Counted from the stretch's first letter, positions 16,597-26,510 are shown. The stretch is 64,000 nucleotides of DNA from an uncultured Chloroflexia bacterium (GCA_963771795.1 CAVYUR010000002.1:23557-87556), one strand, 5' to 3'. Numbers and translations: made by a program. Notes: generated by a model not told the origin, from the sequence alone.

Positions 16597-18207
16597 GTGG
16601 CCAAGGTGACGATGCCCCAGCTCGGCGAGAGCGTCGCCGAGGGGACGATCGGCAAGTGGCTGAAGCAACCCGGTGACACCGTCGAGAAGTACGAACCACT
16701 CGTCGAGGTGATCACCGACAAGGTCAACGCCGAGGTTCCCTCGCCGTTTGCCGGTGTGCTCAAGGAGATCCTCGCCGAGGAAGGTGCGACCGTCCCGAAC
16801 AACGCCGAGATCGCGGTCATCGAGACCGCCGACGAGAGCAACGGGACGAGTGCCGCCGCCGAGGCCGCACCCGCGGCAGAAGCCTCGCCCGCAGCGGCGG
16901 AAGCAGCGCCGCCGGCCGAAGAGCCCGCCGCAGCCGCGGAAGCCCCGGCAGCCGCCGCCACGGCCGCCCCGGACGAGGCGGGCAACGGTCCGGCCGGCTC
17001 CGACGAGCGCCCAGCGGCCGAAGCCCCGACGATAGCCGCACCGGCGCCAGCCGCACCGGCGCCAGCCGAACCCGCCGCGGCTCCGACCGCCGTCGCGAGC
17101 GCGGTCGCGGCGCCACCCAGCGCGACCGATAGCAACGGGCCGGGGAACCCGGACGCCCGCATGACGCCCGCCGTCCGACGTCTTCTGCGCGAGCACGGCC
17201 TGACGGCCGCGCAGATCGTCGGAACGGGCGGCGGCGGACGCATCACCCGCGACGACGTGACGAACTACGTGGAGTCGCAGCGAACAGGAAAGCCCGTCGG
17301 CGGCCAGGCGGTCGCCGGCACAGCGGAAGCACCTCCGGCGCCTGCGGCCGCGCCCGCTGCCGCCGCACCCGCCGCAACCACAGCTGCGGCTCCAGCCGCT
17401 CCCGCGGCCCCGACCGCCGCACCGGCGCCGGCGCCAACGGGCCCCACGCCTGCCCGGGTCGCCGCCTCAGGCGGCACGTCGATCAACTTCCCCGATGGCG
17501 TCGACGAGTACCTCGTTCCGCTGACCCAGATGCGGAAGGGCATCGCGGCCCAGATGACGCGGGCGCTCCAGGCGCCGCACGCCTACGTCCAGATGGAAGT
17601 CGACGTGACTCGCCTCGTCGCCTTCCGAGAGAAGGCCAAGCGCGAGTACCAGGCTCGCGAGGGGATCGGCCTCAGCTTCGTCCCGTTCGTGGTCAAGGCG
17701 TCGGCGGAGGCGCTCAAGCGCAACCCAACGTTCAACGCCACCTGGACCGACCAGGGTCTCGTCGCCAAGCGCCGCGTCAACATCGGCGTGGCGGTGGCGG
17801 TGGACGACGGCCTCATCGTCCCGGTGATCCGCGATGCGGACCAGCTGTCGATTCACGGGCTCAACGTCGCGATCGCGGACGTGGCGGCTCGCGCCAAGGC
17901 CGGCAAGTTCAAGGTCGACGACTTCGGCGGCGGAACGTTCACCGTCGACAACACGGGCTATCTCGGGACGAACCTCGTGATGCCGATCCTCAACGTCCCG
18001 GAGGTCGGGATCGTGACGATGGAGGCGATCACCAAGCGCCCCGTCGTCGTCTCGACGCCTGATGGCGACGTGATCGCGATTCGGCCGGTGATGAACATGG
18101 TCCTTGGCGTCGACCACCGAGCGAACGATGGCGCCGGCGGCGCAGCCCTCCTCCGCGACATCAAGGCATGGCTCGAATCAGTTGGCCCGGACACGCCGAT
18201 CTACTGA
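16597..18207 (+). CDS. bkdB: Dihydrolipoamide acyltransferase (E2)
   Basis: Lipoyl domain MPQLGESVAEG...TDKV, E3-binding MTPAVRRL..EHGL, catalytic DHRANDG. GGAGG SD. Confidence 0.85.
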   Translation: MAKVTMPQLGESVAEGTIGKWLKQPGDTVEKYEPLVEVITDKVNAEVPSPFAGVLKEILAEEGATVPNNAEIAVIETADESNGTSAAAEAAPAAEASPAAAEAAPPAEEPAAAAEAPAAAATAAPDEAGNGPAGSDERPAAEAPTIAAPAPAAPAPAEPAAAPTAVASAVAAPPSATDSNGPGNPDARMTPAVRRLLREHGLTAAQIVGTGGGGRITRDDVTNYVESQRTGKPVGGQAVAGTAEAPPAPAAAPAAAAPAATTAAAPAAPAAPTAAPAPAPTGPTPARVAASGGTSINFPDGVDEYLVPLTQMRKGIAAQMTRALQAPHAYVQMEVDVTRLVAFREKAKREYQAREGIGLSFVPFVVKASAEALKRNPTFNATWTDQGLVAKRRVNIGVAVAVDDGLIVPVIRDADQLSIHGLNVAIADVAARAKAGKFKVDDFGGGTFTVDNTGYLGTNLVMPILNVPEVGIVTMEAITKRPVVVSTPDGDVIAIRPVMNMVLGVDHRANDGAGGAALLRDIKAWLESVGPDTPIY

Positions 18208-19198
18208 GCCGTCCCAGAAGCGGATCGCCGTCACCGGCGGAGCCGGGTTCGTCGGTCGGGGAGTCGTCCGCGGGCTGAGTGATCGTGGTGACACGGTCGT
18301 CGCCCTGGTCCGTGACCCGAAGAAGGCGCCACCGGACCTCGCTGGTCCCGGCGTCGAGCTCGTCGCGAGCGATCTGTCCGACGTCGAGGAGCTCGCGGAG
18401 CAACTGCGCGACGTGGACGGCGCAATTCACGTCGCCGGCAGCTACCGGGTCGGCATCCGGAAGGACGAGCGTGGCGCGATGTGGGATGCCAATGTCGGGA
18501 CCACGACGCGAATCCTCGATGCCGTCGAGGCTACAAGAGTGCCGCGCATCGTCTACGTCTCGACCGCGAACGTCTTCGGCAACACCCGTCGCGTGGTCGT
18601 CGACGAGACGTACAAGCGCGACCTCGCCGGGGGCTTCCTTAGCTGGTACGACGAGACCAAGTACGGAGCCCACGAGGTCGCAGAGCAGCGAATTGCGGCC
18701 GGCGCGCCCGTCGTGATCGTCATGCCGAGCCAGGTCTATGGGCCCGGCGATCACACGGCAGTCGGGGAGCAGCTGCGACTGGCCTACGAGGGTCGCCTCC
18801 GATATCGGGCTGCCGACGACGTCGGGCTCGGCTTCGTCCACGTCGACGATCTGGCGGCCGGGATCATCGCGGCGCTGGACCGCGGCGTCGTCGGCCAGTC
18901 CTATGTGCTTTCCGGGCCGACGACAACGCTTCGAGACGCGACCGAGATAGCCGCCCGGATCGGCGGGCACACGCTGCCGCGACTCCGGATCTCATCCGGC
19001 GTCCTCCGCGCCATGGCGCCTCTTGGGCGCCTCGTTGGCCAGCCGAACCTGCGTGAGGTTGTCTCGGCATCGGCCGGCGTCACCTACTGGGCATCGGCCG
19101 CGAAGGCCGTCGCTGAGCTCGGCTTCGCGCCGCGCGATGTCGAACAGGGCCTGCGCGACACCTTCACAAGCCGCGACGCGGCCGAACCATCGCCCTGA
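18182..19198 (+). CDS. NAD-dependent epimerase/dehydratase (extended SDR); start uncertain
   Basis: KRIAVTGGAGFVG, YxxxK (YDETK). No ATG lies near the expected start: either TTG 18182 or a lost T in CCCA(T)GAAGCGG near 18216. Confidence 0.75.
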   Translation: MARTRRSTEPSQKRIAVTGGAGFVGRGVVRGLSDRGDTVVALVRDPKKAPPDLAGPGVELVASDLSDVEELAEQLRDVDGAIHVAGSYRVGIRKDERGAMWDANVGTTTRILDAVEATRVPRIVYVSTANVFGNTRRVVVDETYKRDLAGGFLSWYDETKYGAHEVAEQRIAAGAPVVIVMPSQVYGPGDHTAVGEQLRLAYEGRLRYRAADDVGLGFVHVDDLAAGIIAALDRGVVGQSYVLSGPTTTLRDATEIAARIGGHTLPRLRISSGVLRAMAPLGRLVGQPNLREVVSASAGVTYWASAAKAVAELGFAPRDVEQGLRDTFTSRDAAEPSP

Positions 19199-19635
19199 TG
19201 GTCGGCCGCCTGGCCCTTACCGTCTGTGCGGCAATCTTGGCATCGGGCGGGTGCGGTCGGATCCTCCCGGGAGATGAGGTCCTTTCGGTCGTAAGAACCG
19301 ATGGGGACCTGCGCGTTCGGGTGGCTGGCTGGGCGAGGTCCGGGGCCGAAGTCTTCCTCTGTCCCAACCCGATCGTGATCCCTGACGACCGACAGAATGT
19401 CGGAGCGCTAGTCCTGGCCGCGGGCTGCATCATCGTCGGGCAAGTCGGTGCGGACTCGGACAATTCGGAGGTTGCCGTTCGTTTCGACGAGCTCCTCCCT
19501 CTTGAGCAGTCGCAACTTGATCGCCGGGCAACATGGTCGGTCGTGGTCCTCCAAGTCCCAGAGCCAACGAATCACCCGCCGGAGTCCATCCAGCAGGAGA
19601 TCCCGGGTGGACCCATCAGCCCGCCACCAGCGTGA
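19198..19635 (+). CDS. Hypothetical exported protein or lipoprotein
   Basis: TGATG overlap with the upstream gene and a hydrophobic N-terminus ending in Cys. No family recognised. Confidence 0.5.
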   Translation: MVGRLALTVCAAILASGGCGRILPGDEVLSVVRTDGDLRVRVAGWARSGAEVFLCPNPIVIPDDRQNVGALVLAAGCIIVGQVGADSDNSEVAVRFDELLPLEQSQLDRRATWSVVVLQVPEPTNHPPESIQQEIPGGPISPPPA

Positions 19636-19658: not shown

Positions 19659-20687
19659 ATGTCCCGCGAGCTCCCGATCTTTAGTCCTTCGGGTCCAGCC
19701 CACCACGGCTCTTCCGCGCCTGAGACCATCGCGATGGGCGGCTCGGTCACGCCGCTGCGGAGGCATCCCGACTGGATCCGCTCGCGACTGCCGTCCGGCG
19801 AGAACTACCACGACCTCAAGGGCCTGATGCGCGGCCTCAATCTCAACACGGTCTGCGAAGAGGCGCACTGCCCGAACATCGGCGAGTGCTGGGACCAGCG
19901 GACCGCGACGATCATGATTCTCGGCGACACGTGCACGCGGGCCTGCGGCTTCTGCGCCGTCAAGACGGGCCGACCGACCTGGTTCGACGACGACGAGCCG
20001 CGCCGGGTCGCCGAAGCAGTCGGGGCCATGCACCTCGAGCATGTCGTCGTAACGAGCGTCGCCCGGGACGACCTGCCCGACGGTGGATCCAGGATCTTCG
20101 CCGAGACGATCCTCGCGATGCGCGATACGAGCCCCGGGATGGGGATCGAGGTCCTGATCCCGGACTTCGACGGCTCCGACGATCGGCTGCGGACCGTGAT
20201 GGACGCCCGGCCCGACATCCTCAACCACAACCTCGAGACCGTGAAGCGGCTCCAGAAGCCGGTCCGCAAACGAGCCCGATGGGATCGCAGCCTGTACGTC
20301 CTGCGACGGGCGAAGGAGATGTCGGTCGAGATCGGCTACCCGGCCCACACGAAGTCGAGCCTGATGGTCGGCCTGGGCGAGGCACGCGACGAGCTCACGG
20401 AGGCGTTCGAGGCACTGCGCGAGGTCGACGTTGACATCCTCACGATCGGCCAGTACCTGCGGCCTTCGGAAAAGCACCTGCCACTTGAGCGCTACTACCA
20501 TCCCGACGAATTCGCTGAGATGAAGCTCGAGGCGCTCGGGCTCGGGTTCAAGCACGTCGAGTCCGCGCCGCTCGTCCGGTCCAGCTATCACGCCCGCGAC
20601 CAGGTCCCGGGCGCGGAGCTGCGGGCGCTCCGCCGCCGCCAGGCCACACTCGACTCCGACGGCCGCGTCGTTCCGGCAGCCAGCTGA
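19659..20687 (+). CDS. lipA: Lipoyl synthase
   Basis: [21 protein letters not shown] radical SAM motif, VRSSYHA. Leaderless TAGACT -10 at 19647. Confidence 0.95.
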
Positions 20688-20718: not shown

Positions 20719-21474
20719 ATGAATCCGGACCCCGACGCCACCGAGCTCTTCGTCGAGCGAGTCCGGGTGACGGGGCGGCGTCCGATCGTCTCGGCGGTGA
20801 TCGTTGGCGCGGCGGTCGTGTCGTTGATCGGCCTCGCCATCCTGAAGCCATGGGTACCGCCGCCGGACTTGCGCGCCGACGGAGTTTCGACTTCGGGGTC
20901 AACAATCGCGCCGTCGTTCGGAAATGCAGCCCCGTCGCGGGCACCGACCAGCGCCACGCCTCGACCCATCGTCCAGGCGACGCCGCTGCCGTTTCTCCCA
21001 CGTGCCGCCGAACTCCTCGGGACCGCGGCGCGGCACGATGACTGGGGCATCCGTGCGGTCGTCGTGCCGGCCGTGACGATGCGATTCGATGTGAATGGGC
21101 CAGTCCTCGCCGAGCGCTGGATGTCAATCGACGTCGCCCACGGCGCGGCATGGAACCTGGCACGGGAAGGCGCGGCGGAGAGCTCGGGCGATGCCGTACT
21201 GGCGATTGGTGCAACGACGCCCGCCGAGGTCACTCCACTCGGCGTCCGGTTCTGGCGGCTCGACGACGTGTCCGGACCGCGCGAGATCGAGCCAGTGCTG
21301 CTCCAGAGCCCCGATCAACAAACGCAGTTATGGCTGCCAGACCCTGCCAACTCGACGCGGATCGGCACGTGGCCGCCCGGGTCCTACAGGATCGATGTGA
21401 CGGATGGGGAGCGGGTCGTCCGGCTCGTGATCATCGTCCGAGGCGAGCCTTCGGCTGACCGCCCCTCGAACTGA
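20719..21474 (+). CDS. Hypothetical single-TM membrane-anchored protein
   Basis: One TM helix (IVSAVIVGAAVVSLIGLAIL), Ser/Thr/Pro linker, beta-rich C-terminal domain (WPPGSYRIDV). Confidence 0.6.
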   Translation: MNPDPDATELFVERVRVTGRRPIVSAVIVGAAVVSLIGLAILKPWVPPPDLRADGVSTSGSTIAPSFGNAAPSRAPTSATPRPIVQATPLPFLPRAAELLGTAARHDDWGIRAVVVPAVTMRFDVNGPVLAERWMSIDVAHGAAWNLAREGAAESSGDAVLAIGATTPAEVTPLGVRFWRLDDVSGPREIEPVLLQSPDQQTQLWLPDPANSTRIGTWPPGSYRIDVTDGERVVRLVIIVRGEPSADRPSN

Positions 21475-21575
21475 GGCCTTGAATCGCCGTCGGCCGAGCC
21501 ACATAATCCCGCGACCGGGCTGGACCCATCGCTTCGTGACTGCGCCCGGGGCGATGACAGCGTGAGAGTGCGGCC

Positions 21576-23259
21576 TTGCAAATCGTGGCCCTCGCACCGC
21601 CCGGTCAATTCCCGACGACCATCGCAGACCTGCCCTGGTGGGGCAGCCTCGCGGCGTCCGGCCACGACCTCGAGCGGCCGTCGGTCAACGCCCGGTGGTG
21701 GCGCGACCTGGCGTCGCCGGACGGGGCGCGGACGCTAAGGGCGACATCAGGCAAGATCCCGGACCTGGCGACCAACGCCGGCGCCGCTCTCCAACTGCTG
21801 CAGACGGCCGAGACGTTCGCCAGCCGCGACCGCTATCGATCGGCGGTCGGCGCCATCGGTCGCCTTCTCGACCAAATCAACGACGATCAGCCGGATCTCC
21901 GGCTGTCCTTTGCGGCCGGTGCGCGTGTTCGAGGGCTCGATTGCGAGGATAGTCGCGCGATCGTCCGGTACGCCGGCCGCGCTACTCAGCTGTCGGCGTC
22001 AGTCGAGCGAGCCCTGCGCGTCGTCGGTCCGGAGCCCGACATTGCCATCGTCTCTGTGACGAGCACGGAGGAGCTCCTCACGGCCTTCATCGCGGTGCGT
22101 CTCCTGAAGGAACGGTCACCCAGGCTGTTCGCGGTCCTCGCCGATCACAGCTTCGGAAGCTTTTCACTTACGCCCCATGTCGATGCGCTCGCTCGCTCTG
22201 GCGCAGTCGCCACATGGTTCGACGCCATGATCGTCACGCCCGGCGATCGCGATGCGCTCGTCCCGGCGATCGTTCGCGAGCTTGAGCAGGGCAAGCGACC
22301 CACGGGCTTCCTCCGGCTCGGCGACCTGCCGGACGTCGAGGCGAGCGCGGCCGGCAGCTCTGCCCCGCCGCCGACGGATACCTTCGCGCCGGCGCCGGTG
22401 GCCCGGCTCCGACTGAGTGGCGGTCGCTGCTACTGGGATCGCTGCACGTTCTGTGTCCAGGCGGAGAGCCTGTCGGACCGGCCGCCGTCGCTGGCTGACG
22501 TTCCTACCGCGGTCGAGCGTCTCGAACGGTTCGTGGCCGCCGGGTACCGCCATGCCATCTTCGCCGACGAGGCGCTCGCCCCGGCGTTCCTGGCGCGCCT
22601 GTGCGAGGCCCTGGAGGAACGTGCTCTGCCGATCGAATGGGCATGCCGCTCGAAGATCGAACGGGCCTTCACACCGGAACTGTTCAGGGCGATGGCCAAA
22701 ATCGGCTGCACCGAGGTCCTGTTCGGGCTCGAGTCCGTCGTTCCGCGCGTGCTGCGGCTCATGGACAAGGAGACTCCGGGACTCGACGCGGACGGAATCG
22801 CTCGAAATCTGCAGTGACGCCGCCGCATCCGGCATCGGCGTCCACATGAACCTGATTGCCGGGTTCCCGGGGGAGCGACCGGCCGAATTGGAAGCCTCGG
22901 TGGCGTTCGTCGAGCGCCGCCTGGCCACCCTGCCGAACGCGACCTTCTCCCTGACGCCGTTCATGCTGTTCAACGAGGCCCCGATCGCCGCCGATCCGAC
23001 GGCCCCGCTGACATCGCCGTCGGCCGCCGGCGACATGCCATTCATTCGTCGCCACTCGGGGGCGGAAGCGTGGGAGGGCGACCGCCGTCGCATCCTCGCA
23101 GCGTTGCCGCGCCTCGAACGCCGGCTGCGCGCGGCTGGAGGGTGGGGCGACGATTTGGCCTCGCGCCTTGCATGTGATTTGCTCTCCGAAACGGGACACG
23201 CGCTCATCTTCAAGTCGGCGGCTCGTGGGCCGGGATCGCCACGCTGGAGGGCGGCGTGA
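21576..23259 (+). CDS. Radical SAM protein (class B / B12-binding-like architecture); apparent +1 frameshift near 22805
   Basis: RCYWDRCTFC (Cx4Cx2C), FADEAL, WACRSK, FGLES..PRVLRLMDK. The C-terminus GIGVHMNLIAGFPGE continues in the 22417-23259 frame. TTG start uncertain. Confidence 0.75.
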
Positions 23260-23750
23260 CGACGCGCTCACTTGCGACATCGAGCCGATGGATCGGCAGC
23301 GCCGTGCTCTTCCCAGTCGCTGCGGTCGTACTGGTTGCCGCGTTCTGGGCCGAGTTCGGGCAGCAATTGCTCGGGCTGGCCGGCCTCGCCTGCGCGGCGT
23401 GCGCCGATCCCAGCAACGGCATCGACCCGGCGGGGGCGGCAGCCGGGGCTGCGGCGGCGGGAACCGTGGCGGGCGGCGCGGCGGCTGGAGGCGGCACGAC
23501 GGGAACCGATGGCGCCGATGACGCATCAGGTCGCGAACCATGGACCCCAAGGCCGACCCGGGATGCTCGCCTTCCCGACCCAACCGATGACTCAGGTGAT
23601 CAAACCCCGTGGGAGTCGCTCCCACCAAGGCCCCCAGATGCCTGGTATGAGGATCGGAGGCTGATCGAGGCCACGGAGCAGTTGCAGAAGTGGGCCGAAG
23701 GATGGATCGGAGTCGACCGAAAGGGCACCGCCCCGGCGTCCAAAGCGTGA
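23256..23750 (+). CDS. Membrane-anchored CAAC-motif protein, paralogue A (candidate RiPP-like precursor)
   Basis: GTGA overlap with the rSAM stop. TM helix, LLGLAGLACAACADPSNGID, Gly/Ala-rich tract, C-terminal KGTAPAS. Confidence 0.75.
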   Translation: MTTRSLATSSRWIGSAVLFPVAAVVLVAAFWAEFGQQLLGLAGLACAACADPSNGIDPAGAAAGAAAAGTVAGGAAAGGGTTGTDGADDASGREPWTPRPTRDARLPDPTDDSGDQTPWESLPPRPPDAWYEDRRLIEATEQLQKWAEGWIGVDRKGTAPASKA

Positions 23751-23763
23751 GGGAGAGGAAGCG

Positions 23764-24276
23764 ATGACTGTCTCGTCAGTCATGTGGAGCCGCTCGCGGA
23801 TCGGCCTCTGGGTGCTGATTCCGTCTGTGGCAGCAGTTCTCACGGTCGTGGCTCAGGCCGCGGTCGGACAGGACCTGCTCGGCCTCGCGGGCCTCGCATG
23901 CGCGGCCTGTGCCGATCCGAGCAACGGCATCGACACGATCGGAGCGGTCGGTGGGCTATTCGGCGCTGGAACGGCGGCGGGCGGTGCGGCAGCCGGGGGC
24001 GGGACCGGGACCGGCGAAACAGGCGGCGTCGGGGTCGACCGAGACGGCCGGACCGTGTGGTATCCGACCGGCCCCGAGAGCTTTCCCGATGAGCAGTCCC
24101 GCCGGAACTGGTTCGACCAGCACTTCGGACCGGGGCCGGGGCCGGTGCACCAGACGATCATCGACACGACGATTCGCGTGGGAGAACAGGTGGAAAAGTG
24201 GGTACAGGAATGGGTCGATCCGGACAAACGATGGCTCTTCGACGAAAAGGGCACAGCGCCGGCGTCGTTGTCATGA
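23764..24276 (+). CDS. Membrane-anchored CAAC-motif protein, paralogue B (candidate RiPP-like precursor)
   Basis: GGAGAGGA SD. The same 20-aa motif starts at the same residue (38). Gly/Ala tract, C-terminal KGTAPAS. Confidence 0.75.
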   Translation: MTVSSVMWSRSRIGLWVLIPSVAAVLTVVAQAAVGQDLLGLAGLACAACADPSNGIDTIGAVGGLFGAGTAAGGAAAGGGTGTGETGGVGVDRDGRTVWYPTGPESFPDEQSRRNWFDQHFGPGPGPVHQTIIDTTIRVGEQVEKWVQEWVDPDKRWLFDEKGTAPASLS

Positions 24277-24295
24277 CAATGAGTGAGGCGACGCG

Positions 24296-25463
24296 ATGAC
24301 TGCTCCGGCGATTGCAGCACCGACCCGGCGTGGAATCCCGACCCTGCTCCTCACTGGCGGCCTCATCGCGGCCATCGTCGTGTTCCTGTGGCAGCTCGCC
24401 CTGGTTCTCGCGCGGAGGCGGCGAGGCGTTCCTTATCAACCTCTGGTATCACGGCTATGTCTTCGTCTGGCTCCTGGTCATCACGGCCCTCGGGCGAACC
24501 CTCCCCCTCAGAGTCCTGGCCGCGGCGTTCTTCTTCGGGCTGTTCCTGTCCGTTGCCGTCGCGCTGGCGATCGGAGCCCCGCTCGCCGATGCTCTCGGGT
24601 CCAGCAGCCGGCTCTTCGACTCGGTCCTCATCCCGGGGCTCGAAGAAATCAGCAAGGGCCTGCCGATTCTGGCGTACTTCTGGATCCTGACCCGGCGGGG
24701 GACGTGGCAGCCGTCGATGACGGACGGATTGATGCTCGGCTTCCTCGTCGGGGCAGGTTTCGCGATCTACGAAGACGCCCTGTTCGACCGGAGCTTCGGG
24801 AGCGACTTCGGCATCGCGGACCTGACCGTCATCTTCCCGACCGTCGACGACCATCGCCTCATCGGCGAGGGCCGGAGCTTCGGCTTCTACCACGCCCAGT
24901 GGTCGGCCCTGATCGGCCTGGCGATCGGTGCCGCCTTCTTCTTTCGAGCGCGCTTCCGGCTCGCGTGGCTCTTCCCGATCGTTGCCCTGGCAGTCGTCTG
25001 GCTCGATCACGGGCGCGTGAATTACGTCGCCGGAGAGCTCGGCATTGCCGTTCGCAGCAGCCCGACCTCAGACGTGCTCGGATCGCTGACGCTCGGTGGT
25101 CGACTGCCCGTCTACCTGCTCATTGCCGGGATCATCGCCGCTGTCGTAACGGAGATCGTCGTTCGCCGCCGCATGGCTAGGCGGGACTACTTGTTCAAGG
25201 GCATCTCGCTGCCGACCCTTCTGACATGGCTCCGGTCGGGCGGTGTCGCCGGATTGCGGCGCGTCCAGGCGGGTCGCGAATACATTCGAGCGCGTCGCGC
25301 CGTCCACTACGCGCTGTGGCACTCGGCTCCGGGAGCGCTCGATTCGGGTCGGGTCTCGCGGATGGGCAGGATGCTTGTCGTCTTGGGCATGCGCGCCGGC
25401 ATGACGTTCCCGGAGCCCGGCGGCGTTCAGGGCCCGGCGCCACCACCGGCTCCTGCGGTGTGA
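24296..25463 (+). CDS. prsW: PrsW-family intramembrane metalloprotease; apparent +1 frameshift near 24400
   Basis: PGLEEISKG, GAGFAIYED, HAQWSALIG, WLDH motifs. The N-terminal TM (MTAPAIAAP...VFLWQL) is in the 24296 frame. Confidence 0.75.
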
Positions 25464-25479
25464 TTCCGACCGCCCGACT

Positions 25480-25498
25480 AGAACGTATGTTCTATACT
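25480..25498 (+). promoter_or_regulatory. LexA (Cheo-type) SOS box overlapping a TATACT -10 of a leaderless gene
   Basis: AGAAC-GTAT-GTTCT at 25480-25493, TATACT at 25493-25498, ATG 7 nt later. Confidence 0.8.
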
Positions 25499-25505
25499 GC
25501 CTCGT

Positions 25506-26510
25506 ATGGACGTCGCGTATCGCGAGGAGCCTTGCCGCTCGGCGCTGAACCGCGTGAGGGGCATGATGTTCGGCTGGTCGCTCAACCCGTACATGGGCTG
25601 CGCCCACCGCTGCACCTTCTGTTACGTCCGGAATTTCGAGCGGCGCGCCGATCGGCCCTCTGACGACCGATACGGCCGATCGATCCGGGTCAAGGTCAAC
25701 GTCGTCGAGGTGCTTCGCCGGGAGCTCGCTAGGCCGCGCTGGAAGCACGAAGTCGTCGCAATCGGAGCCGCGACGGACCCATACCAGCCGGCGGAGGGCA
25801 GGTACCGGCTGACGCGCGGCTGCATCGAGGCGCTCGCCGAGGCCCGCAACCCGCTCTCGATCATCACCCGCGGCCCGATGGTCATCCGCGACATCGACGT
25901 CCTCGTGGAAGCCTCGCGACGTGCGAAGACATCGGTCACGTTCTCCGTCCCCACGCTCGATCACGAGATCTGGCGAACGACGGAACCGGGCACGCCGCCA
26001 CCCCGGCAACGGCTTCGGGCGCTGAGCCGCCTGGTGGACGCGGGCATCGACGCCAGCGTCGGGATGGCCCCGATCCTGCCAGGTCTATCGGACCGGCCTG
26101 AGCTGATGGCGGACGTCGTCAAGGCCGCCCGCGATGCCGGTGCGACGTCGATCTGGACGAACGTGCTGTACCTCCGGCCCGGAACGCGCGAGCACTTCCT
26201 TGAGAACCTCGCTCGCGACTGGCCGGAGCTCGTGCCACGTTATGAGCGCCAGTACGCCGGTCGCGCCTACCTGCCGAAGAGCCAGGTCGAGACGGTTCGG
26301 CGCGAGGTCGCGGACCTTCGCCATCGGTTCGACATCGCCGATCGTCGCCAGGTCAGGCTCATGCCGGCGCCCGCGCCTGATCCGAACGAGCAGCTCCAAC
26401 TGGGCCTCGGCGCCGCCGTACCTGGCCAAATGTCCACCCGCAGAACGTTCGGGAAGCTGGGTGGTGCCGTCGGCGCTCTGGATGGCGATTCGTTAGCCGC
26501 TACAGGGTGA
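25506..26510 (+). CDS. SplB-like DNA-repair radical SAM protein (Rv2578c/PA0069-like family)
   Basis: SLNPYMGCAHRCTFCYVR, GAATDPYQPAEGRYRLTR, EPGTPPP..RL, MAPILPGLSD. Confidence 0.85.
   Translation: MDVAYREEPCRSALNRVRGMMFGWSLNPYMGCAHRCTFCYVRNFERRADRPSDDRYGRSIRVKVNVVEVLRRELARPRWKHEVVAIGAATDPYQPAEGRYRLTRGCIEALAEARNPLSIITRGPMVIRDIDVLVEASRRAKTSVTFSVPTLDHEIWRTTEPGTPPPRQRLRALSRLVDAGIDASVGMAPILPGLSDRPELMADVVKAARDAGATSIWTNVLYLRPGTREHFLENLARDWPELVPRYERQYAGRAYLPKSQVETVRREVADLRHRFDIADRRQVRLMPAPAPDPNEQLQLGLGAAVPGQMSTRRTFGKLGGAVGALDGDSLAATG

What the first reader, a model, noticed from the sequence alone, without database searches (positions are those of the whole stretch)
21576..25463. RiPP-like operon: atypical radical SAM enzyme + two paralogous CAAC-motif membrane peptides + PrsW protease
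Seen in sequence: four co-oriented, tightly coupled genes (GTGA overlap, then 13-nt and 19-nt gaps), followed by a separately LexA-controlled gene. Established: B12-type radical SAM enzymes methylate RiPP precursors (PoyC, TsrM), other radical SAM enzymes install Cys thioether crosslinks, and PrsW belongs to the CPBP-related intramembrane protease clan, whose members process or protect against bacteriocins. Inference: the rSAM modifies the conserved Cys-containing motif or the Gly/Ala tract of membrane-tethered precursors, which PrsW then releases. I do not recognise this combination as a described RiPP class. It could alternatively be a PrsW/anti-sigma-like signalling module.
Basis: partly seen in the sequence, partly recalled or inferred. 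Interest (0 to 1): 0.8.

Follow-up and report, generated by a model that had tools for sequence, protein, structure and literature searches.

The report
Radical SAM, CxxC membrane peptides, PrsW cassette
A rare 4-kb accessory gene cassette pairs an uncharacterised radical SAM enzyme with two small membrane-anchored proteins and a dedicated membrane protease, and the enzyme's wider, apparently undescribed family sits next to exported peptides in many phyla, so it is a good lead for new peptide-modifying chemistry.

Summary
Window 21576-25463 carries four co-oriented genes. They are a 561-aa-type radical SAM (rSAM) enzyme with an invariant CX4CX2C cluster motif, two paralogous 164/170-aa proteins sharing LLGLAGLACAACADPSNGID, and a PrsW-family intramembrane protease.

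The cassette is a discrete insertion. Two same-genus genomes have lipA followed directly by the LexA-box/Rv2578c-type gene.

The peptide family is extremely rare: 22 hits among 1.84 billion representative proteins. It lies next to its own PrsW subfamily in every informative locus. The rSAM is present in 7 loci and absent from the flanks fetched in 3.

The rSAM family is much wider, with 33 species genomes across many phyla. There it usually sits beside an SDR gene and behind 1-4 exported peptides ending in x-V-R-G. A separate rSAM clade also has anchored proteins plus PrsW.

No Pfam or NCBIfam family covers the peptides, and I found no paper on such a system.

My reading is an undescribed RiPP-like maturation system. 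The modified residue is unknown: the C-terminal tail is at least as likely as the Cys motif. PrsW as the processing protease is inferred. Anti-sigma signalling is not supported.

The parts
21479..21507 (+). Promoter-like site TTGAAT-17-CATAAT ahead of the rSAM gene. Weak evidence only.
   Evidence: consensus scan found 1 site, against 0.2 expected from shuffles.
21576..23259 (+). Radical SAM enzyme gene of the 561-aa type with a CX4CX2C motif (CYWDRCTFC). It is read in two frames because of one extra base at about 22803-22805: frame A runs to the stop at 22817, frame B continues to 23259.
   Evidence: Intact homologues are 561 aa. AF2 model pLDDT 90.9. Fold neighbours include OxsB, TsrM, AprD4 and MiaB.
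23256..23750 (+). Peptide A, 164 aa. It has an N-terminal hydrophobic anchor, the LACAACADPSNG motif, a Gly/Ala tract and a C-terminal region ending in KGTAPASKA.
23764..24276 (+). Peptide B, 170 aa, a paralogue of A (46-49% identity). It has the same motif and ends in KGTAPASLS. This type lies directly upstream of PrsW in most loci.
23367..23426 (+). Motif block LLGLAGLACAACADPSNGID in peptide A. The twin block in peptide B is at 23875-23934.
   Evidence: 8 synonymous and 0 non-synonymous codon differences; family-wide core C-x-x-C-[AVI]-D-P.
24296..25463 (+). PrsW-family intramembrane protease gene. The ATG at 24296 opens an N-terminal TM helix in one frame. An extra C at 24397 shifts reading to the frame of the 24312-25463 ORF. 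The EExxK, FxxxE, H and HxxxN motifs are intact.
20719..21474 (+). A 251-aa membrane-anchored protein of unknown function. It is a variable passenger of the insertion: present in the window and L005, absent in L004 and L013 and in empty-site genomes.
25480..25493 (.). LexA-box palindrome AGAACGTATGTTCT. It is not part of the cassette and belongs to the next gene.
   Evidence: A related box occupies the same position in the empty-site genomes.
25506..26510 (+). Rv2578c-family radical SAM gene (SPL-like). It is the resident neighbour and not part of the cassette.
   Evidence: NF038135, E = 1.5e-86, 290 bits against a curated cut-off of 430; synteny in genomes without the cassette.

Best explanation
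This is an accessory, horizontally mobile maturation cassette for small membrane-anchored proteins. It is RiPP-like in logic.

Shown:
- The rSAM enzyme belongs to an uncharacterised family. The family has an invariant CX4CX2C cluster motif and an N-terminal Rossmann-like domain plus a radical SAM barrel.
- Across many phyla, members of this family lie next to genes for exported or anchored peptides with a conserved C-terminal tail.
- In this Chloroflexia-type lineage the partners are 1-4 paralogous proteins of about 130-190 aa, mostly 150-177 aa. Each has an N-terminal anchor, an invariant C-x-x-C-[AV]-D-P turn, a Gly/Ala tract and a C-terminal region of about 90 aa.
- A private PrsW subfamily is co-inherited with these proteins.

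Inferred mechanism:
1. The cytoplasmic rSAM modifies the precursor before or during membrane insertion. The C-terminal ...G-T-x-P-x-x-[KR]-[AG] tail is at least as likely a target as the Cys pair.
2. The N-terminal anchor inserts with the N-terminus inside and the C-terminus outside.
3. PrsW has its active site in the membrane near the outer face. It recognises the invariant CxxC-DP segment just after the anchor, cuts there, and releases or matures the product.

The chemistry is unknown.

The two single-base frame breaks in this copy are most likely consensus errors of a long-read metagenome assembly, not gene decay.
For: Linkage of the genes:
- rSAM, peptide(s) and PrsW recur in syntenic loci (L005, L013, L004) and in unrelated contexts (L007, L016).
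- PrsW lies next to the peptide in every locus long enough to tell: window, L003-L007, L013, L016-L018, L054, L055.
- Peptide family and PrsW subfamily are equally rare: 17-22 and 18 proteins.

The cassette is a unit:
- Same-genus genomes G064 and G030 have lipA, then about 45 bp holding the LexA box, then the Rv2578c-type gene.
- Peptide and rSAM are each found in 1 of 201 genomes of the order.

The rSAM family is peptide-linked:
- 33 genome loci were found.
- 27 of 4201 frames of at least 40 codons end in [GAS][VIA][RK]G. Of these, 24 end within about 700 nt upstream of the rSAM on its strand. At least one occurs in 20 of 27 loci.
- Most of those I read have signal-peptide-like N-termini and many are Cys-rich.
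- A separate rSAM clade (L021, L022) has 184-209-aa anchored proteins plus an SDR plus PrsW, so either PrsW was recruited twice or it was lost from most lineages.
- CAAC-family tails mostly end [KR][AGN], and one ends TVGARG.

Enzymes look intact:
- rSAM: invariant Cys triad and a conserved DEA segment that may correspond to OxsB's ADE (GGE) motif; this was not aligned to OxsB. AF2 model pLDDT 90.9, with fold neighbours OxsB, TsrM, AprD4, MiaB, TokK and CysS. OxsB also uses CX4CX2C (PMC9204698).
- PrsW: EExxK, FxxxE, H199 and H238xxxN242 are conserved.
Against: - No modification, cleavage or expression has been observed.
- Three CAAC loci (L003, L054, L055/L056) have peptide plus PrsW but no rSAM within 4-8 kb. 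The rSAM is therefore dispensable, or encoded elsewhere in those genomes.
- The CxxC-DP motif is equally conserved with and without the rSAM, so it cannot be tied to the rSAM.
- The SDR partner of the wider family is missing here. The window's epimerase is only 25-31% identical to it.
- A cytoplasmic rSAM acting on a signal-anchored protein requires modification before translocation. This is assumed, not shown.
- No RRE-like peptide-binding domain was identified.
- The peptide AF2 model is poor (pLDDT 50).
- Two of the four cassette genes are frame-broken in this genome, and reads could not be checked.
Confidence: 0.55

Rival explanations
1. The functional unit is only peptide plus PrsW. It would be a self-contained membrane module, for example regulated proteolysis, turnover or release of a small anchored protein. 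On this reading the rSAM is a frequent but non-essential neighbour that does not modify these proteins.
For: - PrsW accompanies the peptide in all informative loci, whereas three loci lack the rSAM.
- The motif is invariant regardless of rSAM presence.
Against: - The rSAM clade linked to these peptides is monophyletic and is found only beside them.
- The GTGA start/stop overlap couples rSAM and peptide A.
- The family's general habit is to sit beside tail-bearing peptides.
- A separate rSAM clade is also linked to PrsW and anchored proteins.
Confidence: 0.2
2. This is a bacteriocin-type system. The Gly/Ala-rich anchored proteins would be membrane-active toxin precursors, present in 1-4 variants per locus. 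PrsW would act mainly as a self-immunity protein or leader peptidase, like the CAAX/Abi-type proteins in bacteriocin clusters (from my own knowledge). The rSAM would tailor the toxin.
For: - Several paralogous precursors occur per locus.
- The family is sporadic, accessory and mobile.
- The proteins carry Gly/Ala-rich hydrophobic tracts.
- PrsW shares motifs with type II CAAX proteases (PMC8767453).
Against: - No dedicated exporter (ABC transporter with a C39 peptidase domain) appears in the gene tables of any locus.
- At 130-190 aa, the products are long for RiPP bacteriocins.
- No similarity to any known bacteriocin family was found.
Confidence: 0.12
3. This is a PrsW/anti-sigma-like signalling module. 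On this reading the peptides are site-1 substrates whose cleavage relays an envelope signal to transcription.
For: The only characterised PrsW cleaves the anti-sigma factor RsiW in its extracytoplasmic part (PMC8767453).
Against: - No sigma factor or site-2 protease gene appears in the gene tables and ORF lists I inspected for the cassette loci. No dedicated sigma-factor search was run.
- The peptides have about 12 residues before the anchor, which leaves no room for an anti-sigma domain.
Confidence: 0.03
4. In this particular genome the cassette is a decaying pseudogene remnant. The two frameshifts would be real, so the locus would be non-functional here whatever it does elsewhere.
For: - Two of the four cassette genes are broken, and neither break is in a long homopolymer.
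- In the relative L004 the rSAM region is shredded over many frames, peptide A is missing, and the surviving peptide's N-terminus is altered.
- My read of the flanking genes (E2, lipA, Rv2578c-type, ada) shows them intact in the window.
Against: - Sister MAG loci from what appear to be related samples have frame breaks in housekeeping genes: E2 in L004, E2 and lipA in L013.
- Earlier notes on this genome report many such breaks, judged to be assembly errors (unverified leads, and one search found two sigma-70 genes intact).
- The sequence on both sides of each break is still conserved at the protein level.
Confidence: 0.25

Closest known systems
OxsB and other class-B (cobalamin-domain) radical SAM enzymes: TsrM, TokK, CysS, MgmA, and the cobalamin-free AprD4
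   Same: - N-terminal Rossmann-like domain followed by a radical SAM barrel.
- These are the best structural neighbours.
- OxsB shares the unusual CX4CX2C motif, and the window family's conserved DEA may correspond to OxsB's A-D-E 'GGE' motif (and alignment).
- Weak NCBIfam hits to PhpK, rSAM_ocin_1, HpnJ, ApyD and AprD4.
   Different: - Only 13-17% identity, with TM-scores of 0.4-0.5.
- All NCBIfam scores are far below the cut-offs, for example 37 bits against 282-750.
- PF02310 was not reported for this rSAM.
- There is an extra N-terminal segment of about 150 aa with its own invariant motif (PGRFPT...D...NxxWW).
- The substrate appears to be a protein, not a nucleoside or antibiotic.
RiPP clusters with radical SAM maturases and a membrane CAAX/Abi-type protease (for example SagE in the streptolysin S cluster; from my own knowledge)
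   Same: - Precursor gene(s) lie next to a tailoring enzyme and a polytopic membrane protease of the CAAX-related superfamily.
- There are several precursor paralogues per locus.
   Different: - The precursors are 130-190 aa with an N-terminal signal-anchor instead of a cytoplasmic leader.
- The protease is PrsW-type, not Abi/CPBP (PF02517).
- No exporter and no RRE were seen.
Bacillus subtilis PrsW-RsiW site-1 proteolysis
   Same: - Same protease family, with the same EExxK and His motifs.
- Cleavage of a single-pass membrane protein on the extracytoplasmic side is the known activity.
   Different: - The substrate here is not an anti-sigma factor, and no sigma factor is linked.
- The protease carries an extra C-terminal cytoplasmic tail of about 100 aa.
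- It is genetically coupled to a radical SAM enzyme.
Cytoplasmic radical SAM maturation of proteins that are then exported (anSME with sulfatases, QhpD with the QHNDH gamma subunit; from my own knowledge)
   Same: A cytoplasmic rSAM acts on a polypeptide that is subsequently exported. This is the logic needed here and for the x-V-R-G peptides.
   Different: Those enzymes are SPASM/twitch-type with auxiliary clusters and have defined chemistry (formylglycine, thioethers). This family has no SPASM domain.

Membership tests
Radical SAM superfamily (PF04055) | A three-Cys motif binding the SAM-ligating [4Fe-4S] cluster | tested here: met
   C285, C290 and C293 are invariant in 32 sequences, as CX4CX2C rather than CX3CX2C. 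This variant is documented for OxsB.
Radical SAM superfamily (PF04055) | Profile match above the gathering score, and a partial TIM-barrel fold | tested here: met
   Intact homologues score 34.3 and 39.6 bits against a cut-off of 29.5. The window's broken N-terminal piece scores 26.6, below the cut-off. Radical SAM enzymes dominate the matches in the fold search.
Class B (cobalamin-dependent) radical SAM enzymes | An N-terminal cobalamin-binding Rossmann domain (PF02310) | tested here: inconclusive
   PF02310 was not reported for this rSAM (searches gave only PF04055). The precomputed Pfam lists show PF02310 only in very distant hits P0053-P0056. The model does have a beta-alpha domain before the barrel and matches OxsB, TsrM and TokK at TM about 0.45, but it also matches the cobalamin-free AprD4 and MiaB.
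Class B (cobalamin-dependent) radical SAM enzymes | Actual cobalamin binding or methyl transfer | not testable with these tools
   This needs purified protein, UV-vis or EPR spectroscopy, and activity assays.
TIGR03975 rSAM_ocin_1, TIGR04479 PhpK, NF050148 ApyD, TIGR03471 HpnJ | Score above the curated NCBIfam cut-off | tested here: not met
   Scores of 31-39 bits against cut-offs of 282-750 bits.
RiPP biosynthetic gene cluster | A ribosomal precursor gene adjacent to and co-inherited with the tailoring enzyme | tested here: met
   7 CAAC loci carry the rSAM. In 20 of 27 wider-family loci, peptides bearing the tail motif lie next to the rSAM.
RiPP biosynthetic gene cluster | A post-translational modification of the precursor, followed by leader removal | not testable with these tools
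   This requires expression and mass spectrometry.
PrsW family intramembrane protease (PF13367) | Profile match above the cut-off and conserved catalytic motifs (EExxK, His motifs) | tested here: met
   56.1 bits against a cut-off of 23.5. E116, E117, K120, F155, E159, H199, H238 and N242 are invariant or nearly invariant.
PrsW/anti-sigma (RsiW-type) signalling module | The substrate has a cytoplasmic anti-sigma domain and is linked to an ECF sigma factor gene | tested here: not met
   The peptides have about 12 residues before the anchor. No sigma factor gene appears in the gene tables and ORF lists I inspected for the cassette loci. No dedicated sigma-factor search was run.
Bacterial lipoprotein (lipobox) | [LVI][ASTVI][GAS]C at the end of a short signal peptide | tested here: not met
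   Read directly from the sequence: position -3 is G for the first Cys (GLAC) and C for the second (CAAC). The Cys residues lie about 46-49 residues from the N-terminus.
LexA (SOS) regulon | A LexA box in the promoter of the cassette | tested here: not met
   The only box (25480-25493) lies downstream of PrsW, in front of the Rv2578c-type gene. It is present in genomes without the cassette.

The most novel reading that the evidence does not exclude
The window is an offshoot of a widespread, undescribed class of ribosomal peptide or protein maturation systems.
- An OxsB-like CX4CX2C radical SAM enzyme, usually with a dedicated SDR, would modify the C-terminal tail of Sec-type exported peptides before export. 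The tail is x-V-R-G in most phyla and G-T-x-P-x-x-[KR]-[AG] here.
- In some lineages a PrsW-family intramembrane protease would have been recruited as the processing enzyme for membrane-anchored substrates.
- If so, this would be new radical SAM chemistry on a C-terminal motif, and the first non-anti-sigma substrate class for PrsW.
Probability: 0.4. Interest if true: 0.85.

Novelty: new variant of a known kind. Interest (0 to 1): 0.66.

Why it matters
**Radical SAM chemistry.** Radical SAM enzymes acting on ribosomal peptides are a main source of new enzymology and natural products. This family has a non-canonical cluster motif and no curated annotation. It has a clear, repeated genomic partner: exported peptides with a fixed C-terminal tail, plus an SDR. 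Members occur in at least three isolate genomes: Paenibacillus athensensis MEC069, Shimia litoralis CL-ES2 and Clostridium hydrogenum CUEA01. The chemistry is therefore directly testable.

**PrsW biology.** PrsW proteases are widespread. To my knowledge, their characterised substrates are all anti-sigma factors, best studied for RsiW. A private PrsW subfamily that is strictly co-inherited with a protein family carrying an invariant CxxC-DP segment offers a defined candidate substrate and recognition motif.

Tried and rejected
- **Collection scans for the peptide:** Genome contigs and metagenome-contig scans with the peptide alignment found nothing. The family is too rare, or near-relatives are withheld.
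- **GC3 frame-plot census of frameshifts:** too noisy to count breaks across the window.
My search found two intact sigma-70 genes, so that note is not confirmed. My case for assembly error rests on split E2 and lipA in sister MAG loci.
- **AF2 of peptide B:** pLDDT 50. The model gives no usable fold beyond a long N-terminal helix and two C-terminal helices.
- **Upstream epimerase at 18104-19198 as the family's SDR partner:** rejected. It is only 25-31% identical to the partner SDR, and it is a resident gene in genomes without the cassette.
- **Lipobox reading of the CAAC motif:** rejected on the residue at position -3 and the distance from the N-terminus.
- **251-aa upstream gene as part of the system:** rejected. 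It is absent from L004, L013, L007 and L016.
- **Literature searches:** I searched for radical SAM with PrsW, with RiPP, with GVRG and with intramembrane protease. Nothing relevant came up.


Full report
**1. What is in the window**

On the + strand, after lipA (19659-20687) and a 251-aa membrane-anchored ORF (20719-21474), lie four tightly spaced genes.
- A radical SAM (rSAM) gene, 21576-23259.
- Peptide A, 23256-23750. Its GTG start overlaps the rSAM TGA stop as GTGA.
- Peptide B, 23764-24276, after a 13-nt gap that contains GGGAGAGGA.
- A PrsW-family protease gene, starting at ATG 24296 after a 19-nt gap and ending at 25463.

Pfam assigns the first gene to Radical_SAM and the last to PrsW-protease (56 bits against a cut-off of 23.5). 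The two small proteins hit nothing in Pfam or NCBIfam.

The next gene, 25506-26510, is an Rv2578c-family rSAM (NF038135, E = 1.5e-86, 290 bits against a curated cut-off of 430). It is preceded by the perfect palindrome AGAACGTATGTTCT at 25480-25493. That palindrome is the only match in the window, against 0.01 expected.

**2. The frame breaks**

I aligned the rSAM DNA with four intact 561-aa homologues. The only frame-disrupting difference is one extra base at about 22803-22805. In PrsW, one extra C at 24397 separates the N-terminal TM helix from the rest, relative to five homologues.

Protein conservation continues on both sides of each break.

Sister loci come from what appear to be related samples and carry Flye-style contig names. 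The genome-collection title of one reads 'uncultured Chloroflexia bacterium', isolate MFD05747.bin.2.90. These loci have frame breaks in housekeeping genes: E2 in L004, and E2 and lipA in L013.

Earlier notes on this genome report many such breaks, judged to be assembly errors. Those notes are unverified leads. One of them was not reproduced, because I found two intact sigma-70 genes.

I therefore rate assembly error as more likely than decay, but the question is not settled. In L004 the rSAM region is badly shredded and peptide A is missing. Real loss therefore does seem to happen in this lineage.

**3. The small proteins**

The family is very rare.
- The word-indexed search of 5.8 billion proteins gave 17 hits.
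- An exhaustive profile search of 1.84 billion cluster representatives gave 22 hits.
- Peptide-alignment scans of the genome collection (one genome per 185,579 species) and of the JGI metagenome collection found none.
- Of 201 genomes of the same order, including 8 of the same genus, only the window's genome has it.

Members share the following features.
- A short, often conserved N-terminus (MT[VT]RS[FIL]).
- A hydrophobic anchor.
- The core C-x-x-C-[AVI]-D-P, which is LACAACADPSNG in this window.
- A Gly/Ala tract.
- A C-terminal region with ...LQKWAE...
- A tail that usually reads G-T-[AV]-P-x-G-x-[KR]-[AGN] at the very end.

The two copies here differ at 8 codons of the 20-residue motif, all synonymous. 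That agrees with an earlier first-reader note.

AF2 gives no confident fold (pLDDT 50). The Cys positions do not fit a lipobox.

**4. Co-occurrence**

| Locus | Context | Gene order |
|---|---|---|
| Window | lipA insertion site | rSAM, 2 peptides, PrsW |
| L005/L006 | syntenic | rSAM, 1 peptide, PrsW |
| L013 | syntenic | rSAM, 54-aa ORF (possibly a broken peptide A), peptide B, PrsW |
| L004 | syntenic | rSAM (decayed), 1 peptide, PrsW |
| L007 | different (astacin-like gene upstream, DUF1611 downstream) | rSAM, 3 peptides, PrsW |
| L016 | short contig | rSAM, 2 peptides, PrsW, 2 more peptides |
| 4.8-kb Logan contig | short contig | rSAM, two peptides and a PrsW of matching contig length; not fetched |
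| L003 | different | peptide, PrsW; no rSAM in the flank |
| L055/L056 | different | peptide, PrsW; no rSAM in the flank |
| L054 | different | PrsW, divergent peptide; no rSAM in the flank |
| L017, L018 | short contigs | PrsW and peptide; too short to judge the rSAM |

So the peptide-PrsW pair is invariable and the rSAM is frequent but not universal.

The PrsW subfamily has 18 members at 53% identity or more, which makes it as rare as the peptides. It keeps the EExxK, FxxxE and His motifs.

**5. The cassette is an insertion**

Two same-genus genomes carry E2, epimerase, lipA, an Rv2578c-type gene and ada. In both, only about 45 bp lie between lipA and the Rv2578c-type gene, and that spacer already contains the LexA box.

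The 4.8 kb between lipA and the box in the window is therefore accessory DNA. It holds the 251-aa gene plus the four-gene cassette. The LexA-controlled gene is a resident neighbour and not part of the system.

The rSAM family is also found in only 1 of 201 genomes of the order.

**6. The rSAM family**

An intact homologue (P0018) retrieved 42 relatives.
- A tight clade at 71-100% identity is linked to the CAAC peptides.
- A broad set at 35-43% identity has source names such as Gammaproteobacteria, Binatia, Paenibacillus and Sulfobacillus.

A genome scan found 33 loci, and added titles such as Chloroflexia, Acidobacteriaceae, Terriglobia, Elusimicrobiota, Alphaproteobacteria, Vampirovibrionales, Planctomycetia, Clostridium hydrogenum and Shimia litoralis.

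The motif R-R-C-Y-W-x-x-C-x-F-C (CX4CX2C) is invariant. So are a D-E-A motif, two further Cys residues (C357, C378) and an N-terminal PGRFPT...D...NxxWW signature.

The AF2 model is confident (pLDDT 90.9). Its best PDB neighbours are MiaB/RimO, OxsB, TsrM, AprD4, MgmA, TokK and CysS, at TM 0.4-0.5. All of these pair an N-terminal Rossmann-like domain with an rSAM barrel. OxsB is the documented precedent for CX4CX2C and for an A-D-E 'GGE' motif (PMC9204698).

All NCBIfam matches are far below their cut-offs. Cobalamin dependence is therefore possible but unproven.

**7. What the wider family sits next to**

*The SDR partner.* In at least 21 loci, a specific SDR/epimerase of about 300 aa follows the rSAM directly.

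*The tail peptides.* Upstream of the rSAM there are one to four ORFs, mostly 65-125 aa. In a few loci the ORF is a larger membrane protein. Most of those I read have signal-peptide-like N-termini. Their C-terminal end is [GAS][VIA][RK]G, typically GVRG.
- 27 of 4201 frames of at least 40 codons carry this ending.
- 24 of those 27 end within about 700 nt upstream of the rSAM, on its strand.
- The other three lie within about 2 kb downstream of it.
- 20 of 27 loci have at least one.
- About half of these peptides are Cys-rich near the tail.

*A second PrsW association.* Two loci, L021 and L022, have 184-209-aa N-terminally anchored proteins with an Ala/Gly or Pro tract, ending in GIRG or SGSNG. 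These are followed by rSAM, SDR and a PrsW that is 26-28% identical to the window's.

*Phylogeny.* In a tree, the CAAC-linked rSAMs form one long-branched clade (100/100). The PrsW+SDR group forms a separate clade. Either PrsW was recruited at least twice or it was lost from most lineages.

*Link to the CAAC tails.* Most CAAC-family tails have a penultimate K or R and a small last residue, and one member ends ...TVGARG. This connects them to the x-V-R-G tails.

*Annotation and literature.* No NCBIfam model covers the tail peptides. Literature searches found nothing on such a system.

**8. Interpretation**

Shown:
- A mobile, conserved cassette.
- An uncharacterised, OxsB-like rSAM family that is systematically adjacent to exported or anchored peptides with a fixed C-terminal tail.
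- A private PrsW strictly linked to the CAAC proteins.

Inferred:
- The rSAM modifies the precursor in the cytoplasm.
- The anchor inserts with the N-terminus inside.
- PrsW cuts at or near the invariant CxxC-DP segment.

PrsW's known activity is cleavage of a single-pass protein on the outer side of the membrane (PMC8767453).

The site of rSAM action is open.
- For the Cys pair: Cys-rich partners are common across the family. The Chloroflexia paralogue's partner membrane protein also has a Cys pair between hydrophobic segments.
- For the tail: the feature conserved across the whole family is the C-terminal tail. The CxxC-DP motif is also equally conserved where the rSAM is absent.

The anti-sigma reading has no support. 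A bacteriocin/immunity reading remains possible.

**9. Verdict**

The system is a new variant of rSAM-dependent peptide or protein maturation. It has an unprecedented PrsW partner, and it belongs to a wider family that appears undescribed.

I found no evidence of expression or chemistry. This copy may also be damaged.

Noticed in passing
L019-L049 (for example L028:5026-5982, L027:5526-5967, L024:5215-5999): A wider, apparently undescribed system. One to four exported peptides ending in x-V-R-G lie directly upstream of the CX4CX2C rSAM, with a dedicated SDR downstream. It was found in 33 species genomes across many phyla, including the isolate genomes Paenibacillus athensensis MEC069, Shimia litoralis CL-ES2 and Clostridium hydrogenum CUEA01.
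   Followed up: partly
L015:4890-6952 and L020:4543-5997: In Chloroflexia paralogue loci, the gene upstream of the rSAM is a 484-534-aa polytopic membrane protein. It has an ADNC(A/S)NL(G/S)DC turn between hydrophobic segments. In L020 it ends in ...AVSGVRG. The same MAG as L004 carries this second rSAM+SDR locus.
   Followed up: partly
window 19198-19635: A 145-aa lipoprotein-like ORF (signal peptide, then ...ASGGC) lies between the epimerase and lipA. It has no tblastn match in the corresponding regions of two same-genus genomes. It may be another small indel in this neighbourhood.
   Followed up: partly
L061:7980-8070 and L062:7840-7925; window 25480-25493: A LexA-box-like palindrome lies in front of the Rv2578c-family rSAM gene in three genomes of the genus. 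This suggests SOS control of this SPL-like gene in the lineage.
   Followed up: partly
L055:441-3381: A second, shorter PrsW-family gene (317 aa) is followed by a 201-aa anchored protein and a trypsin-like protease. It lies 1 kb upstream of the CAAC peptide-PrsW pair and is a different PrsW-linked module.
   Followed up: no
L004:2454-4039; L013:3256-6894: Housekeeping genes are split or fused by frame changes in sister long-read MAG contigs: E2 acyltransferase in L004, and E2 and lipA in L013. This is evidence that indel errors are common in these assemblies.
   Followed up: partly
L003:9759-10487: In the locus without the rSAM, a ZIP-family metal transporter gene follows PrsW directly. Given the CxxC motif, a metal link is conceivable, but it was seen only once.
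   Followed up: no
P0094: A 2814-aa protein matches the peptide profile in 7 stretches (profile positions 53-144). This is probably low-complexity Gly/Ala similarity. I did not examine it.
   Followed up: no
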